Source: Escherichia coli (lineage in GTDB: Bacteria > Pseudomonadota > Gammaproteobacteria > Enterobacterales > Enterobacteriaceae). From it: 64,000 nt of DNA. The notes beneath the pieces were generated by a model. The model was not told the origin of the DNA. It was given only the letters and a program-made list of their open reading frames with translations, and searched no databases. Shown here piece after piece: positions 1 through 3,623 of the stretch. The stretch lies in NCBI RefSeq assembly GCF_050920415.1, contig NZ_CP169309.1; one strand, given 5' to 3'. Numbering within the stretch: position 1 is the stretch's first letter; every line of letters starts with the position of its first letter. The position numbers were made by a program, and so were the translations under genes.

Positions 1-1
1 T

Positions 2-850
2 CGATATCTGAAAATACAGGACACACGACTGAAAAATGGGGATATTGCAGCTACAACCCACAAAGAAAAAGCGCGAATGGCTGCATACCTGGTTTCCCGT
101 CTGGGAAACCACCCATTGAAAGAACTGGAAGTAAGAGACTTTGCATTAATACTGGACGAGTGGATGGATAAAGACATGGTCAGCACAGCGAGGGTAAATC
201 GCGGATTATGGGTTGATATTTATAAAGAAGCACAGCATGCAGGGGAAGTTCCTCCTGGATGGAATCCTCCGGAGGCTACCCGTAAACCGATCCCTAAAGT
301 AACCAGATCCAGACTTACCCTGGAAGACTGGCAAAAAATTTACAATGCAACACCAGAAAAACACTTTATCCGTAACGCAATGCTTCTTGCGATTGTCACT
401 GGTCAGCGCCGTGATGACATTTGCCATATGCGTTTTTCAGATGTGTGGAACGAACACTTGCATATCACCCAGGGAAAAACCGGAATGCGTCTGGCGTTAC
501 CGCTTACACTACGCTGTGATGCCATTGGTATAACGTTAAAAGAAGTTATTGATGGATGCCGAGACAGAATATTAAGTCCATATCTAATCCATAGTCGGCA
601 CCAGAAACAACCAAAGCCGATGAGTAAAGACAACCTGAGCGACTACTTTGCCAAAGCACGGGATCTGGCTGGGATAATTCCACCAGCAGGAAAAACCCCG
701 CCAACATTCCATGAACAACGCTCTCTATCAGAACGGCTGTACCGTGCACAAGGTATCGATACAAAAACATTACTGGGACATAAAGTCCAGGCAACTACCG
801 ATCGCTATAACGATACTCGAGGTCAGGAATGGGTTAAGTTGGTTGTTTGA
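2..850 (+). CDS. int: Tyrosine integrase, lambda Int family (C-terminal catalytic portion; 5' end outside window)
   Basis: Frame is open from the window edge to TGA at 848-850; sequence aligns with the lambda Int C-terminal domain (VTGQRxxD, HExRSLSxRLY, LLGH, Y..D.RG.EW motifs including catalytic Arg and Tyr). Confidence 0.9.
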   Translation, partial: RYLKIQDTRLKNGDIAATTHKEKARMAAYLVSRLGNHPLKELEVRDFALILDEWMDKDMVSTARVNRGLWVDIYKEAQHAGEVPPGWNPPEATRKPIPKVTRSRLTLEDWQKIYNATPEKHFIRNAMLLAIVTGQRRDDICHMRFSDVWNEHLHITQGKTGMRLALPLTLRCDAIGITLKEVIDGCRDRILSPYLIHSRHQKQPKPMSKDNLSDYFAKARDLAGIIPPAGKTPPTFHEQRSLSERLYRAQGIDTKTLLGHKVQATTDRYNDTRGQEWVKLVV

Positions 851-938
851 CAAAAATAACCATCCGGGATTATAGTCTGCGCACGCCAGCAAAATCTGGC
901 GTCGGGATTGGCGTCCCGGATAACATCACAACGCATAG

Positions 939-957
939 CCGCGTTTGCGGTTTTTTT
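939..957 (+). terminator. Putative weak intrinsic terminator downstream of int (4-bp GC stem, 7-T run)
   Basis: ccgc-gttt-gcgg followed by ttttttt about 90 nt after the int stop; stem is short so strength is uncertain. Confidence 0.3.
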
Positions 958-1056
958 GCGTTAAGCATTGCCACATTCGCATTATGGTGGGGCGTGCAGG
1001 GGCGGAGAAATCCGCGCCGGGTTTTGTGATGACCGGTTACGCCAACCCTGTACGTC

Positions 1057-1107
1057 TCACCACCTCCCTGATTGGCGTCAGAGGTGGTGATCATCCAATT
1101 AATTGGA
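1057..1107. promoter_or_regulatory. Operator-like symmetric elements upstream of rha: 10-bp inverted repeat with 14-bp spacer plus a 12-bp perfect palindrome overlapping the rha ribosome-binding site
   Basis: TCACCACCTC (1057-1066) and GAGGTGGTGA (1081-1090) are exact reverse complements; CCAATTAATTGG (1095-1106) is a perfect palindrome, with GGAG at 1105-1108. Confidence 0.35.
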
Positions 1108-1117
1108 GTCATCACAT

Positions 1118-1675
1118 ATGAATACAGCTATAACTTTTCCTAACGAGTCACCAAAAGTCTTTTTCAAAGATGGTCGCTTGGTTACCACCTCTCAAGCTGT
1201 TGCCGACTACTTCGATAAACAACATAAACACGTTTTAGCTAAGATTGACGCACTCGACTGCTCGCCCGAATTTACATCAGCCAACTTTTCGTCCGATGTT
1301 CAGACTGTCGAAATTGGCAACGGCGCAGAACGTGAATCACGATGCTACCTGATCACAAAAGACGGCTTCATGTTCCTCGTAATGGGATTTACTGGCAAAA
1401 AAGCAGCCAGACTAAAAGAAGCTTACATTGCAAAATTTAACGCAATGGAGGAAGAACTCCACAAACGCCCACCAGCAGCGCAGCAAACCTCGTCAGAAGA
1501 TGTCGGTTGCTCGTTGTTAATCCATTTCAATAACCACGGTCAGGTTGAGTTTACGGAAAAAGTCCCAGCCGACGCAATGGTGTGCACCCTCGAGCGTTTT
1601 AAGTTTTATCTGGAACAGCAAGGCTGGATAGTTGCCCGTAAGGAGCAACTGTTGGAAAGGTTAATGTCGCTTTAG
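1118..1675 (+). CDS. rha: Rha-family phage regulatory protein (antirepressor-like)
   Basis: 185-aa product with an N-terminal Rha/pRha-like domain (DGRLVTTSQAVADYF..KxHKHVL..I, KDGFMFLVMGFTGKKA); ATG at 1118 has GGAG 9 nt upstream; the ORF-track start at 1103 is TTG. Confidence 0.8.
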   Translation: MNTAITFPNESPKVFFKDGRLVTTSQAVADYFDKQHKHVLAKIDALDCSPEFTSANFSSDVQTVEIGNGAERESRCYLITKDGFMFLVMGFTGKKAARLKEAYIAKFNAMEEELHKRPPAAQQTSSEDVGCSLLIHFNNHGQVEFTEKVPADAMVCTLERFKFYLEQQGWIVARKEQLLERLMSL

Positions 1676-1682
1676 CTAATGC

Positions 1683-1706
1683 AAAAACCCCGGCATAGCC
1701 GGGGTT
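1683..1706 (-). terminator. Intrinsic terminator between convergent rha and the cargo operon (T-run on minus strand)
   Basis: ccccggc-ata-gccgggg hairpin at 1688-1704; A5 on the plus strand gives a U-run after the stem on the minus-strand transcript. Confidence 0.6.
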
Positions 1707-1711
1707 GGGAA

Positions 1712-2209
1712 TTATTTCAGGACAAGCGCATTCAGCGCCTCGATCACCTTTCCAAGATAACTGCCAAAAAGCCACCAGGTTACACCAGCACAGAATGAAA
1801 TCACCGCCAGACTCACGCCGATATAAACCTTTGCTTTCCTAATGGTATCATCTATGTCATCGAGTTTTTCGAGCTTTTTGTCTATTTGAGCTAACTCAGA
1901 CAATTTATGGGAATGCTCAGCAAGTGTCTTATTGATACTGTCCAGTGAGGACATTTTTTGCTCGATACCGGATAACGTTGTTTCCATACGAGTAACTGCG
2001 CATGCGAGAGACGCGTCATTTTTGACATCAGACAGGTGATTGTATACCTGATCAATTCTCTCATTCATACGCCTGTTATCCTCTTTCAGTTCATTGAAAG
2101 AATGGACGATCCATTGATGCTGTGAATGCCTTGACTCACCACCACCAGTAACTTGCGCATCTATATCCGGTGTGCGTTGGTCGCCACTATACGAAGATTC
2201 TCTCCCCAT
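1712..2209 (-). CDS. Hypothetical protein, 165 aa: predicted coiled-coil N-terminal region with a single C-terminal transmembrane helix (tail-anchored topology); function unknown
   Basis: ORF with ATG at 2209 preceded by AAGGGG 8 nt upstream and 2 nt after the upstream gene's stop; heptad-like charged region (KLSELAQIDKKLEKLDDIDDTIRKAK) then hydrophobic stretch VYIGVSLAVISFCAGVTWWLFGSYL; the longer ORF-track start at 2242 is TTG. Confidence 0.6.
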   Translation of the reverse strand: MGRESSYSGDQRTPDIDAQVTGGGESRHSQHQWIVHSFNELKEDNRRMNERIDQVYNHLSDVKNDASLACAVTRMETTLSGIEQKMSSLDSINKTLAEHSHKLSELAQIDKKLEKLDDIDDTIRKAKVYIGVSLAVISFCAGVTWWLFGSYLGKVIEALNALVLK

Positions 2210-2211
2210 AA

Positions 2212-2490
2212 TTATAGCCCCTTTGCACGCAACCACTCCCAAAGCGGCATTTTATGCCTTCCGTAATAAGAACTAACAGGGAGGATGATATATGAGTTCA
2301 AATTTTGTTCATCATTTCCACCATCCAGAACATTAAATAACTCCTGGGCAGTGGCGAGCTGGCTTTCGACGAACCAAAGGCAATCATCAACGTTCATGTG
2401 TTGCTCGGGGAATTTTTCTGCAACGACTTCCCTCATCAGCGCCCTGGTGTCATTATTTTCACTGGTTACTACGATAGCGAATATAGACAT
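2212..2490 (-). CDS. Hypothetical small acidic protein, 92 aa; first gene of the two-gene cargo operon; function unknown
   Basis: ATG at 2490 with AAAGGA upstream; appears translationally coupled to the downstream gene; no family recognised. Confidence 0.55.
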   Translation of the reverse strand: MSIFAIVVTSENNDTRALMREVVAEKFPEQHMNVDDCLWFVESQLATAQELFNVLDGGNDEQNLNSYIILPVSSYYGRHKMPLWEWLRAKGL

Positions 2491-2620
2491 GGGTGTGAGT
2501 CCTTTACGATAGTGCTCAAAAACAGTTCTGCAATAGAAATGTAAATCTGAGAAAACTGTCAGGTAAACCTAATGTTTAGCTATCTTATGTAGTTGACTTG
2601 AGCAAAACAAGAGAAAACAT
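2491..2620 (-). promoter_or_regulatory. Putative promoter region for the cargo operon
   Basis: AT-rich region upstream of the 2490 start; candidate sigma70-like hexamers on the minus strand (TTGCAG, 16 bp, TATCGT; TTTACC, 17 bp, TTACAT); none is a strong consensus match. Confidence 0.25.
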
Positions 2621-2739
2621 CACGAGACAGCAAATTTTGCAAACGAGCACAAAATATAAAAAGCTCCATCTATCAACAAAAGCTCGTCCGCAAACCAAGA
2701 AAAAATGTTGTAAAATGCGCAGCCTGTTTTGGGGAAAAG

Positions 2740-2759
2740 TTTTGGAGAGATTTTGGAGA
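2740..2759 (+). repeat. Direct repeat TTTTGGAGA x2 at 11-bp periodicity in an A-tract-rich segment next to the prophage-host junction
   Basis: Copies at 2740-2748 and 2751-2759. Confidence 0.5.
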
Positions 2760-2796
2760 AAGGAAAAAATTGAATAAATTCAAAATCCTGAAAGTG

Positions 2797-2832
2797 TCCC
2801 GCCTTATGAATAAGAAGGTGGAACTCGAATGA
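2797..2832 (+). other. potB: potB 3'-terminal remnant (about the last 11 codons, SRLMNKKVELE-stop) and probable prophage-chromosome junction (att core vicinity)
   Basis: Frame ending TGA at 2830-2832 in ATGA overlap with potC; C-terminal peptide resembles the PotB C-terminus as recalled; the same frame upstream is lysine-rich, unlike a permease, and stops at 2599-2601. Confidence 0.45.
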
Positions 2833-3623
2833 TCGGTCGACTGCTTCGCGGCGGTTTTATGACCGCTATCTACGCGTACCTGTATATCCCAATCATTATT
2901 TTGATTGTGAACTCTTTCAACAGCTCGCGCTTTGGCATCAACTGGCAGGGTTTTACCACCAAATGGTATAGCCTGCTGATGAACAACGACAGTCTGTTGC
3001 AGGCAGCTCAGCATTCACTGACGATGGCGGTGTTTTCGGCGACGTTTGCTACGCTTATCGGTTCACTGACGGCAGTTGCGTTGTACCGTTATCGCTTTCG
3101 TGGTAAGCCGTTCGTTAGCGGAATGCTGTTTGTGGTGATGATGTCGCCAGATATTGTGATGGCGATTTCTCTGCTGGTGCTGTTTATGCTGCTGGGTATT
3201 CAGCTTGGCTTCTGGTCGCTGCTGTTCTCGCATATCACCTTCTGCCTGCCGTTTGTGGTGGTGACGGTGTATTCGCGCCTGAAAGGTTTTGACGTGCGAA
3301 TGCTGGAAGCGGCGAAAGATCTCGGTGCCAGCGAATTTACCATTCTGCGAAAAATCATTCTGCCACTGGCAATGCCAGCGGTAGCGGCGGGCTGGGTGTT
3401 AAGCTTTACCCTGTCGATGGACGACGTGGTGGTTTCTTCGTTTGTCACCGGGCCGAGTTATGAAATTCTGCCGTTAAAAATTTATTCGATGGTCAAAGTC
3501 GGCGTATCGCCGGAAGTTAACGCGCTGGCAACCATATTACTGGTGCTGTCGCTGGTGATGGTAATTGCCAGCCAGCTTATTGCTCGTGATAAAACGAAAG
3601 GTAACACAGGGGACGTTAAATGA
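2829..3623 (+). CDS. potC: Spermidine/putrescine ABC transporter permease PotC
   Basis: 264-aa polytopic permease matching PotC; ATGA overlap with the potD start. Confidence 0.95.
   Translation: MIGRLLRGGFMTAIYAYLYIPIIILIVNSFNSSRFGINWQGFTTKWYSLLMNNDSLLQAAQHSLTMAVFSATFATLIGSLTAVALYRYRFRGKPFVSGMLFVVMMSPDIVMAISLLVLFMLLGIQLGFWSLLFSHITFCLPFVVVTVYSRLKGFDVRMLEAAKDLGASEFTILRKIILPLAMPAVAAGWVLSFTLSMDDVVVSSFVTGPSYEILPLKIYSMVKVGVSPEVNALATILLVLSLVMVIASQLIARDKTKGNTGDVK

What the first reader, a model, noticed from the sequence alone, without database searches (positions are those of the whole stretch)
1683..2620. Uncharacterised two-gene cargo operon between integrase and the prophage-chromosome junction (candidate exclusion, defence or toxin-immunity module)
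Seen in sequence: two tightly coupled minus-strand genes (2490 to 2212, then 2209 to 1712; stop and next start 2 nt apart, each with an SD) with an AT-rich upstream region and a terminator hairpin. Gene 1 encodes a 92-aa acidic soluble protein. Gene 2 encodes a 165-aa protein with a charged coiled-coil-like N-terminal region and one C-terminal transmembrane helix (tail-anchored topology). I recognise no family for either. Established knowledge: the integrase-proximal cargo position is where lysogenic-conversion and anti-phage genes often sit (e14 lit, Shigella gtr loci, P2 old/tin, P4-like hotspots). Inference: a small acidic partner plus a membrane-inserting coiled-coil protein fits a superinfection-exclusion, abortive-infection or toxin-immunity pair. 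This is the best candidate for an undescribed system in the window.
Basis: partly seen in the sequence, partly recalled or inferred. Interest (0 to 1): 0.75.

Follow-up and report, generated by a model that had tools for sequence, protein, structure and literature searches.

The report
Conserved two-gene prophage membrane cassette
At the right end of an E. coli prophage sits a mobile two-gene cassette (a small soluble protein plus a membrane-anchored coiled-coil protein) whose pairing is conserved in many bacteria, matches no described family, and is a testable but unproven anti-phage candidate.

Summary
Two translationally coupled minus-strand genes lie at 2490-2212 (92 aa, pI 4.7) and 2209-1712 (165 aa). 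The second protein has a disordered N-terminus, long helices and one C-terminal membrane helix. Each gene has a Shine-Dalgarno site, a hairpin terminator follows, and both are under purifying selection.

The genes form a 990-bp swappable block (1711-2700) in a lambdoid prophage integrated at potB/potC. Only 2 of 5,426 complete E. coli genomes carry it. Other strains hold a different two-gene membrane cassette in the same slot.

Neither protein matches Pfam, NCBIfam or PADLOC. Gene 1 belongs to an unannotated family of about 473 clusters, with a predicted fold closest to BPSL1038 (Cas2/VapD-like) but no conserved catalytic Asp. In 40 distinct loci from several bacterial groups it is followed, within -11 to +6 nt, by a tail-anchored coiled-coil protein. 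One genome apparently fuses the two genes.

The pair sits in classic accessory slots: next to int, after cI, in the nin/Q region, and in the P2 gpQ-gpA defence hotspot.

The best reading, which is inferred and not shown, is a lysogen-expressed, Rex-like membrane-acting exclusion or abortive-infection pair. A toxin-antitoxin role and non-defence roles remain open.

The parts
1711..2700 (-). The exchangeable cassette: terminator, gene 2, gene 1 and about 210 bp of upstream leader or promoter region.
   Evidence: BLASTN of window 1-3200 against E. coli RSHH22 (L002) shows shared DNA at 1-1091, 1460-1710 and 2701-3200. The stretch 1711-2700 is replaced there by an 830-bp block encoding DUF2335 plus a 67-aa ORF. 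The 990-bp block is found in only 2 of 5,426 complete E. coli genomes.
2212..2490 (-). [quoted passage not shown] Its signature motif is Y75-[YWF]-G77-x-[H/A]-x4-W84-[E/D]-W86-[L/I].
2500..2504 (-). Shine-Dalgarno AAGGA of gene 1, 9 nt before the ATG.
   Evidence: Read from the minus-strand sequence.
1712..2209 (-). Gene 2: a 165-aa tail-anchored inner-membrane protein. Residues 1-26 are disordered, helices span 27-61 and 65-164 and carry LxxI[D/E/N] repeats, the TM helix lies at about 128-150, and a 14-17 aa tail follows.
   Evidence: ORF. Hydropathy. AF2 secondary structure and pLDDT of the fused construct. K/R residues are more frequent on the N-side of the TM helix in 35 of 40 homologues. 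Residues 115-165 match phrog_6136, E 6e-11. dN/dS 0.18.
2218..2223 (-). Shine-Dalgarno AAGGGG of gene 2, lying inside the 3' end of gene 1 and 8 nt before the ATG. The stop of gene 1 and the start of gene 2 are 2 nt apart, which indicates translational coupling.
   Evidence: Read. The same tight spacing (-11 to +6 nt) is seen in all 40 distinct pairs.
1686..1706 (-). Intrinsic terminator hairpin (AACCCCGGC-TAT-GCCGGGGTT followed by TTTTG). It ends the pair and lies back-to-back with the end of the Rha-type gene.
   Evidence: Terminator scan. Relatives L003, L016, L018 and L025 also have G+C-rich hairpins after gene 2.
2491..2700 (-). AT-rich leader that travels with the cassette and presumably holds its promoter, which is not identified in this copy.
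   Evidence: 38-39% GC. It lies inside the exchangeable block. The promoter scan finds no minus-strand hit. Relatives carry TTGCxx/TAGACA-N17-TAATAT/TATAGT boxes 60-130 nt upstream of gene 1.
2701..2806 (.). Conserved right end of the prophage up to the junction with potB/potC. This is context, not cargo.
   Evidence: Shared with RSHH22 and CUVET18-1475 prophages. K-12 homology begins at 2807 and potC starts at 2829.

Best explanation
Shown: this is a mobile, self-contained two-gene cassette (a moron) carried by temperate phages. Gene 1 encodes a small acidic cytosolic alpha/beta protein. Gene 2 encodes an inner-membrane protein whose disordered N-terminus and variable-length helical stalk face the cytoplasm and which is held by one C-terminal membrane helix. 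The two genes are translationally coupled, co-inherited across distant bacteria and, in one genome, apparently fused, so they very probably act as one unit.

Inferred: the cassette is expressed from the prophage in the lysogen and protects it from other phages in the manner of lambda RexA/RexB. The gene 1 protein would be the cytosolic sensing or regulatory subunit, using its invariant aromatic Y-x-G...W-E-W surface. The gene 2 protein would be the membrane effector, oligomerising through its stalk to disturb the inner membrane (depolarisation or leak) or to block a step at its cytoplasmic face. The outcome would be exclusion or abortive infection.

Expression, any phenotype and the direction of control between the two proteins are inference only.
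For: Anatomy: the coupled genes, Shine-Dalgarno sites and terminator are confirmed.

Moron behaviour: the block 1711-2700 is swapped for another two-gene membrane cassette in related prophages. It is present in 2 of 5,426 E. coli genomes.

Pairing:
- All nine distinct Enterobacterales contexts inspected for gene 2 homologues have an 86-94 aa gene 1 homologue immediately upstream.
- In 40 distinct loci from Gamma- and Alphaproteobacterial genomes, IMG/VR contigs and metagenome contigs, gene 1 homologues are followed within -11 to +6 nt by a partner protein. That partner has a disordered N-terminus, a helix or coiled coil, one C-terminal TM helix and a short tail.
- The partner families are related by profile comparison (hhalign probability 95.9%, E 6e-9).
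- L048 (Vicinamibacterales MAG, Acidobacteria) has the two parts in one reading frame with no stop.

Topology: K/R residues are more frequent on the N-side of the TM helix in 35 of 40 partners, which indicates an N-in orientation.

Accessory or defence-type positions:
- next to int, in the window and in L007, L011, L015 and L024;
- directly downstream of a CI-type repressor on the same strand, in L019 (Rahnella) and, with one intervening gene, in L046 (Serratia sp. M24T3);
- in the nin/Q region, in L003, L018, L025 and L044;
- between portal gpQ and replication gpA of a P2-like Vibrio prophage, L041. This locus was shown in E. coli P2-like phages to be an anti-phage hotspot (PMC9122126);
- beside a ThsA-like SIR2 gene in Pluralibacter.

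Orientation: the pair is mostly antisense to the flanking phage operons or co-oriented with cI.

Gene 2 is dispensable and gene 1 is harmless alone. IS1 interrupts gene 2 in E. coli SC516 while gene 1 stays intact, and solo gene 1 homologues exist.

The pair is almost absent from 72,556 plasmids.
Against: - There is no sequence or profile similarity to any known defence protein. PADLOC hits to gene 2 are coiled-coil noise and gene 1 has none.
- No Pfam RexA/RexB, Abi or Sie family is matched.
- A fusion-style AF2 model gives pTM 0.42 and a disordered link, so a g1:g2 interface is not supported structurally.
- No promoter is recognisable in this copy, and expression in the lysogen is untested.
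- Location in accessory slots also fits virulence, fitness or addiction cargo.
- The pair is absent from 50,697 sequenced phage genomes by tblastn, and gene 1's fold has no match in BFVD.
- Five distinct gene 1 homologues lack a partner.
Confidence: 0.36

Rival explanations
1. A toxin-antitoxin or addiction module. Gene 2 would be a membrane-damaging toxin and gene 1 its protein antitoxin (or regulator), stabilising the prophage or cassette rather than primarily acting against phages. This overlaps with abortive infection.
For: - The gene order is small gene first, then the membrane protein, with tight translational coupling.
- Minimal partners of only 70-80 aa are little more than a helix plus a TM segment, like small membrane toxins.
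- Gene 2 can be knocked out by IS1 with gene 1 left intact.
- Solo gene 1 copies exist, but no solo gene 2 was seen in the contexts read.
Against: - The pair is virtually absent from 72,556 plasmids, where addiction modules abound.
- Gene 1 has no DNA-binding domain for autoregulation and no Pfam GhoS or antitoxin match.
- The long, length-variable cytoplasmic stalk and disordered head region are not typical of small membrane toxins.
- An apparent natural fusion of the two parts is unusual for a toxin and its antitoxin.
- The GhoS similarity is no better than about 200 other ferredoxin-like chains.
Confidence: 0.2
2. Superinfection exclusion without cell death. The membrane-anchored protein, with its partner, would block DNA entry or an early step of incoming phages at the inner membrane, like HK97 gp15, P22 SieA or T4 Imm.
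For: - It is an inner-membrane protein encoded by a prophage accessory cassette next to int or cI.
- A different membrane-protein cassette occupies the same slot in related prophages.
- The family shows rapid sequence and length diversification.
Against: - Nearly all of the protein is predicted to be cytoplasmic, with only 5-33 residues (up to 45 in a few metagenome variants) beyond the membrane helix. Known injection blockers act from the periplasmic side (own knowledge).
- This reading does not explain the need for a conserved soluble cytosolic partner.
- No similarity to known Sie proteins was found in Pfam, PHROGs or PADLOC.
Confidence: 0.13
3. A non-defence accessory or phage life-cycle function. 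Examples are an XhlA-like lysis helper or lysis-timing factor, a YqjD/ElaB-like tail-anchored stress or ribosome-associated protein, or another lysogenic-conversion trait that alters host envelope physiology.
For: - One relative of gene 2 (Rahnella type) weakly matches phrog_937 'hemolysin' (E 1.3e-4) and phrog_6136. The window protein matches phrog_6136, of unknown function.
- Some copies lie near lysis or packaging genes (L018, L050, L005).
- The architecture (cytoplasmic helices plus a C-terminal anchor) is that of E. coli YqjD/ElaB/YgaM (own knowledge).
Against: - The pair has no fixed place relative to lysis genes and is usually antisense to late operons.
- There is no Pfam XhlA, holin or DUF883 match for any of 33 pairs.
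- It is absent from 50,697 phage genome records, which is unexpected for a core lysis function.
- Presence/absence polymorphism in otherwise similar prophages shows it is dispensable for the phage.
Confidence: 0.15
4. Gene 1 is an active Cas2/VapD/BPSL1038-type nuclease, acting as toxin or effector. Gene 2 would be its membrane tether, inhibitor or activator.
For: The best structural match of the gene 1 model is BPSL1038 (7vxr_A). [quoted passage not shown] BPSL1038 was reported to be a DNase of a Cas2/VapD sub-family (PMC10491678).
Against: - Sequence identity is only 10%, and there is no profile match to any PDB chain or to Pfam CRISPR_Cas2.
- The position of the catalytic Asp at the end of beta-1 holds D/E in only 39% of 126 family members, and no D(X20)SST motif is conserved.
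- His79 is present in only 56% of members.
- Gene 1 persists intact where gene 2 is destroyed and occurs alone, which is hard to reconcile with an unguarded toxin.
Confidence: 0.06

Closest known systems
Lambda RexA/RexB (and Rex-like prophage pairs such as mycobacteriophage Sbash gp30/gp31; the latter from my own knowledge)
   Same: It is a two-gene prophage module with one cytosolic protein and one inner-membrane protein. In Rahnella and Serratia relatives the pair lies directly downstream of the CI-type repressor on the same strand, the position of rexAB.
   Different: There is no sequence or Pfam relationship. RexB is polytopic (4 TM) and RexA is about 279 aa, whereas here the membrane protein has a single C-terminal helix and the soluble partner is about 90 aa. 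In the window the pair is at the int end, not after cI.
Cargo of the P2 gpQ-gpA hotspot (old, tin and the systems of Rousset et al. 2022, PMC9122126)
   Same: A distant copy of the pair (L041, Vibrio) lies between portal gpQ and replication gpA of a P2-like prophage. It shows the same presence/absence polymorphism as hotspot cargo.
   Different: It is not homologous to any PADLOC model, a library that includes those systems. Anti-phage activity is untested.
BPSL1038 / Cas2 / VapD ferredoxin-like nucleases
   Different: Identity is 10% and there is no profile match. The catalytic Asp and the SST motif are not conserved. The family's invariant residues are aromatic (Y75, G77, W84, W86), which suggests binding rather than catalysis.
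GhoS/GhoT type V toxin-antitoxin
   Different: GhoT is a 57-aa two-helix peptide (own knowledge). There is no Pfam GhoS match. The fold score is in the generic range shared by about 200 chains.
XhlA-type 'hemolysin' (phrog_937) and phrog_6136 phage membrane proteins
   Same: They share a coiled-coil or helical region followed by a C-terminal membrane helix. Gene 2 residues 115-165 match phrog_6136 (E 6e-11), and a relative matches phrog_937 weakly (E 1.3e-4).
   Different: phrog_6136 has no known function. The XhlA-like match is weak, prone to composition bias and absent for the window protein. There is no linkage to holin or endolysin genes.
E. coli tail-anchored proteins YqjD/ElaB/YgaM (DUF883)
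   Same: The topology is the same: a cytoplasmic helical N-terminal part and a single C-terminal anchor (own knowledge for these proteins; for gene 2).
   Different: There is no Pfam DUF883 match. Those are chromosomal stress genes without a coupled partner gene.

Membership tests
Moron (autonomous accessory cassette of temperate phages, sensu Hendrix/Juhala) | Present in some and absent from other otherwise similar phage genomes, inserted between conserved genes. | tested here: met
   Block 1711-2700 is flanked by DNA shared with the RSHH22 prophage, which carries a different block there. It is found in 2 of 5,426 E. coli genomes. The same pair occurs at different positions in other prophages.
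Moron (autonomous accessory cassette of temperate phages, sensu Hendrix/Juhala) | Own terminator. | tested here: met
   Hairpin plus T run at 1706-1686. Hairpins follow gene 2 in L003, L016, L018 and L025.
Moron (autonomous accessory cassette of temperate phages, sensu Hendrix/Juhala) | Own promoter, active in the lysogen. | tested here: inconclusive
   No consensus promoter is found on the minus strand in the window. Promoter-like boxes occur upstream in five relatives. Expression is not testable here.
Known anti-phage defence systems (PADLOC-DB 2.0) | Significant match of at least one component to a system model. | tested here: not met
   Gene 1 and five diverse homologues have 0 hits. Gene 2 has only weak hits (E >= 1e-4) to coiled-coil parts of LmuB, DndD, JetC and similar proteins.
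Lambda RexAB | RexA and RexB protein families (Pfam), with RexB polytopic. | tested here: not met
   No Pfam match for either protein or for any of 33 pairs. Gene 2 has one TM helix.
Lambda RexAB | Co-transcribed with cI in the immunity region. | tested here: not met
   In the window the pair is at the int end. The rex-like position is seen only in the Rahnella (L019) and Serratia (L046) relatives.
Cas2/VapD/BPSL1038 nucleases | [quoted passage not shown] | tested here: met
Cas2/VapD/BPSL1038 nucleases | Conserved catalytic Asp at the end of beta-1 (D11, and the D(X20)SST motif in BPSL1038). | tested here: not met
   D/E is present at that position in 39% of 126 members, and no SST motif is conserved. 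The motif definition is from PMC10491678.
Cas2/VapD/BPSL1038 nucleases | Sequence or profile membership (Pfam CRISPR_Cas2; PDB sequence match). | tested here: not met
   There is no Pfam hit in 126 members and no relevant PDB sequence hit at E<=10.
GhoS/GhoT type V toxin-antitoxin | GhoS family antitoxin and a ~57-aa two-helix GhoT toxin. | tested here: not met
Toxin-antitoxin system (general) | Toxicity of one component neutralised by the other. | not testable with these tools
   Only indirect hints are available. IS1 disrupts gene 2 with gene 1 intact. Solo gene 1 copies exist. The pair is almost absent from plasmids.
XhlA / holin-associated lysis proteins | Pfam XhlA or holin match and linkage to endolysin or holin genes. 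| tested here: not met
   There is no such Pfam match. One relative has only a weak phrog_937 hit. There is no conserved linkage to lysis genes.

The most novel reading that the evidence does not exclude
The pair is the founding example of a widespread, undescribed two-component anti-phage system of temperate phages. It is found in Gamma-, Beta- and Alphaproteobacteria and in Acidobacteria, with about 473 gene 1 clusters at 50% identity. In this reading a non-catalytic Cas2/VapD-fold 'head' protein docks on, or in rare cases is fused to, a tail-anchored stalk protein of variable length. Infection would then be turned into inner-membrane failure or exclusion.
Probability: 0.3. Interest if true: 0.72.

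Novelty: new variant of a known kind. Interest (0 to 1): 0.55.

Why it matters
If the pair is a defence or exclusion system, it adds a compact module of about 0.8 kb built from two protein families with no annotation in Pfam, NCBIfam, PHROGs (function) or PADLOC. The module is spread over several bacterial phyla and sits in the best-known prophage cargo slots. It would also give a function to a Cas2/VapD-like fold that has lost the catalytic residues, and would add a bacterial example of a tail-anchored effector with a length-variable stalk. Even if it is not a defence system, the strict gene 1-gene 2 coupling defines a new conserved prophage module worth naming. The int-proximal slot at potB/potC is shown to swap alternative two-gene membrane cassettes, which makes it a convenient natural comparison for experiments.

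Tried and rejected
- Family searches. Pfam, NCBIfam, PHROGs and PADLOC on both proteins gave nothing beyond coiled-coil noise and phrog_6136. Pfam on 126 gene 1 homologues and on 33 pairs gave nothing consistent; one partner hit DUF1515.
- PDB by sequence or profile returned only spurious ferritin hits.
- tblastn against 50,697 phage records found no match for either protein. Against plasmids there was one distant Rhizobium hit for gene 1.
- The search for related loci with the broad gene 1 alignments failed because no stretch was conserved enough. With the gene 2 alignment it found nothing in GTDB genomes and one truncated IMG/VR contig. I replaced it with a degenerate DNA pattern for YYGxH-x4-W[DE]W, which worked. 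About half to three-quarters of its hits in genomes and metagenomes were chance matches, which I filtered out with an HMM.
- AF2 of gene 1 joined to gene 2 in the natural fusion order gave no confident inter-domain geometry (pTM 0.42). It therefore neither supports nor excludes a complex.
- BFVD fold search gave no significant viral match.
- Literature searches for the protein accessions, for tail-anchored prophage defence proteins and for DUF2335 found no relevant description.
- I rejected the view that gene 1 is a nuclease, because of the conservation pattern.
- I rejected the view that the ORFs are chance ORFs, because of dN/dS and cross-genus conservation.
Full report
**Setting.** The window is an Escherichia coli-type chromosome. 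From about 2807 onward it is 97% identical to K-12 potB(3' end)-potC-potD, followed by cobB, nagK, lolE and lolD. To the left of 2807 lies the right end of a lambdoid prophage. The window opens inside a tyrosine integrase (ORF 77-850, phrog_7244/phrog_1). In E. coli CUVET18-1475, which has the same arrangement, the integrase is preceded by xis, a RecE-type exonuclease, dicB, ydfABC and cI/cro-type genes. potC is a documented prophage integration site in E. coli (papers listed). Between int and the finding lie three Rfam-significant RNA elements: c4-a1b1, isrK and C4 antisense RNA, at 870-1067. A Rha/ORF6N-type regulator follows at 1103-1675.

**The observation.**
- Gene 1 runs from ATG 2490 to TAA 2214-2212 (92 aa, pI 4.66).
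- Gene 2 runs from ATG 2209 to the stop at 1712 (165 aa).
- The two genes are 2 nt apart.
- AAGGA lies 9 nt before the first ATG and AAGGGG lies 8 nt before the second.
- A 9-bp G+C-rich hairpin with a T run at 1706-1686 ends the operon.
- The 316 bp upstream have 38-39% GC against about 52% in the chromosome.
- Gene 2 has one hydrophobic segment at about residues 128-150 and a 14-17 aa tail. Gene 1 has none.

Both genes are under purifying selection. dN/dS is 0.06 and 0.18 against the closest E. coli copy, and the proteins are retained where dS is saturated. The longest mechanical ORF for gene 2 starts at TTG 2242, but the Shine-Dalgarno site and the homologue N-termini support ATG 2209. The promoter is the weak point: the consensus scan finds none on the minus strand. 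Five relatives do carry good -35/N17/-10 boxes 60-130 nt upstream of gene 1.

**It is a swappable cassette.** Compared with the prophage at the same site in E. coli RSHH22, the shared DNA is 1-1091, 1460-1710 and 2701-3200. The stretch 1711-2700, which is exactly terminator, two genes and leader, is replaced there. The replacement is an unrelated 830-bp block encoding a 67-aa ORF and a 155-aa DUF2335 protein with C-terminal hydrophobic segments, also on the minus strand. The 990-bp block occurs in only 2 of 5,426 complete E. coli genomes. In one of them (SC516) IS1 has split gene 2 while gene 1 is intact.

**Known families.** Neither protein matches Pfam, NCBIfam or PADLOC beyond coiled-coil noise. 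Residues 115-165 of gene 2 match phrog_6136, a family of unknown function. tblastn finds neither protein in 50,697 phage records. It finds essentially neither in 72,556 plasmids.

**Gene 2 family.** In a database of 5.8 billion proteins the close family has 29 clusters, all from Enterobacterales: Escherichia, Klebsiella, Enterobacter, Serratia, Pluralibacter, Kluyvera and Salmonella. All are annotated as hypothetical. Lengths fall into classes of 136-141, 163-174 and 189 aa (a 198-aa form occurs in an IMG/VR relative). The differences are insertions or deletions of 24-27 residues in a central region with LxxI[D/E/N] repeats spaced 10, 17 and 27 residues apart.

**The pairing.**
- All nine distinct Enterobacterales contexts read for gene 2 homologues have an 86-94 aa gene 1 homologue immediately upstream.
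- A degenerate DNA pattern for the YYGxH-x4-W[DE]W motif recovered gene 1 homologues from IMG/VR (8 of 11 hits true), GTDB genomes (11 of 22) and metagenomes (31 of 120).
- This yields 40 distinct pairs in all. In each, the next ORF starts -11 to +6 nt from the gene 1 stop.
- Each partner has an N-terminus that is 50-73% P/S/G/T/N/Q, a helical or coiled-coil segment, one hydrophobic helix near the C-terminus and a short tail. Total length is 70-227 aa.
- Lys/Arg residues are more frequent on the N-side of the helix in 35 of 40 partners, indicating an N-in, tail-anchored topology.
- The distant partners are related to the Enterobacterales gene 2 family by profile comparison (hhalign probability 95.9%, E 6e-9). 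The match spans the start of the first helix and the TM region, with the central repeats deleted.
- In a Vicinamibacterales MAG the two parts are in one reading frame without a stop. This is a Rosetta-stone hint, with two caveats: it is a single MAG record, and the held locus ends before the TM helix.
- Exceptions exist. Five distinct gene 1 homologues have no partner ORF, one partner has its TM helix mid-protein, and one looks frameshifted.

**Where the pair sits.**
- Next to int at a prophage end: the window, Enterobacter soli, Pluralibacter, Kluyvera and an IMG/VR contig.
- In the nin/Q region, or between Q and the lysis genes (L003, L018, L025, L044).
- Beside the terminase at a prophage end, or upstream of TerL (L005, L050).
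- Directly downstream of a CI-type repressor on the same strand in Rahnella (L019). The same position, with one intervening gene, occurs in Serratia sp. M24T3 (L046).
- Between portal gpQ and replication gpA of a P2-like Vibrio prophage (L041). In E. coli P2-like phages this locus is a demonstrated reservoir of anti-phage systems (PMC9122126).
- In Pluralibacter strains without the prophage, the pair remains beside a ThsA-like SIR2 gene.

In most of these contexts the pair is antisense to the neighbouring phage operons or co-oriented with cI. Some alphaproteobacterial and MAG loci show no clear phage neighbours.

**Structure of the pair.** I joined the two proteins in the natural fusion order and ran AF2 with 33 paired sequences. 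The gene 1 domain stays confident. Gene 2 residues 1-26 are disordered (pLDDT 47-62). Two helices follow, at residues 27-61 and 65-164, the second running straight through the membrane segment. pTM is 0.42, so no fixed arrangement is predicted. The tool gives no PAE, so an interface cannot be judged.

**Interpretation.** The following are shown: a conserved, translationally coupled, mobile two-gene module of temperate phages, with a cytosolic ~90-aa alpha/beta protein and a tail-anchored stalk protein of variable length. The function is inferred. The accessory-slot distribution (rex-like, old/tin-like, int-adjacent), the antisense orientation, the rarity and the swapping with another membrane cassette all fit a lysogen-expressed competition or defence function. 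The architecture fits a Rex-like division of labour, with a soluble sensor or regulator and a membrane effector. I put this at about 0.36.

The main rivals are as follows.
- A membrane-toxin/antitoxin addiction module (0.20). It is supported by the gene order, by the IS1-disrupted gene 2 with gene 1 intact, and by solo gene 1 copies. It is weakened by near-absence from plasmids and by the fusion.
- Non-lethal superinfection exclusion (0.13). It is weakened by the almost entirely cytoplasmic topology.
- A non-defence accessory or lysis-related role (0.15). It has weak support from phrog_937/phrog_6136 similarity and is weakened by the lack of linkage to lysis genes.
- An active Cas2/VapD-type nuclease (0.06). 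It is weakened by the conservation pattern and by the persistence of gene 1 without gene 2.

**Novelty and score.** The kind of object, a prophage moron with a small membrane-acting pair, is familiar. The two protein families and their strict coupling are, as far as these libraries and literature searches show, undescribed. This is a solid lead that can be tested directly, not a demonstrated system. I give it interest 0.55 and file it as a new variant of a known kind.

Noticed in passing
window 870-1067 (+), with the Rha-type gene at 1103-1675: Between int and the Rha/ORF6N gene, Rfam finds three elements, all above their gathering scores: c4-a1b1 (870-922), isrK Hfq-binding sRNA (883-957) and C4 antisense RNA (980-1067). 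With the downstream Rha-type gene this resembles the Gifsy-1 isrK-orf45-anrP unit, or a P1 immI-type antirepressor control unit (PMC4825925).
   Followed up: partly
L002 4710-5358 (E. coli RSHH22; the same slot as window 1711-2700): Related prophages at potB/potC carry a different minus-strand two-gene cassette in the same slot. It encodes a 67-aa ORF plus a 155-aa DUF2335 protein with C-terminal hydrophobic segments. It has no PADLOC match. The slot therefore exchanges alternative small membrane-protein cassettes.
   Followed up: partly
L177 1502-3057 (E. coli SC516, NZ_CP025048.1): IS1A is inserted inside gene 2 of the cassette while gene 1 is intact. Truncated 115-118 aa gene 2 products form clusters with 15 and 1 member sequences in the protein database (P0004, P0005).
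   Followed up: partly
L048 613-1064 (Vicinamibacterales MAG chromosome OY282382.1): The gene 1-like and gene 2-like parts are in a single reading frame with no stop codon (...WEWLAAKRG-MMTSSSEP...HSWVLQTVTDLQ). The held locus ends before any TM helix, so the fusion could not be confirmed.
   Followed up: partly
window 2701-2832: The prophage is inserted in the last ~25 nt of potB. K-12 homology resumes at 2807 and potC (start 2829) is intact. potC/potD are thereby separated from the potA promoter by the prophage. I did not examine whether they are transcribed from within the phage end.
   Followed up: no
window 1092-1459: The N-terminal two-thirds of the Rha/ORF6N gene is not alignable at the DNA level with the otherwise similar prophages of RSHH22 and CUVET18-1475, whereas its 3' end (1460-1710) is. 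This indicates a mosaic joint inside the gene.
   Followed up: no
L012/L013 5982-7849 (Pluralibacter gergoviae): Where the prophage is absent, the pair sits next to a SIR2 protein (PADLOC ThsA-like, E 1.4e-16) and a ParA/CbiA-type ATPase. No complete known system was recognised.
   Followed up: partly
alignment A6 (33 pairs): One partner protein hits Pfam DUF1515 (E 1.6e-4), so part of the partner superfamily may already be covered by that DUF. I did not identify which member it was.
   Followed up: no
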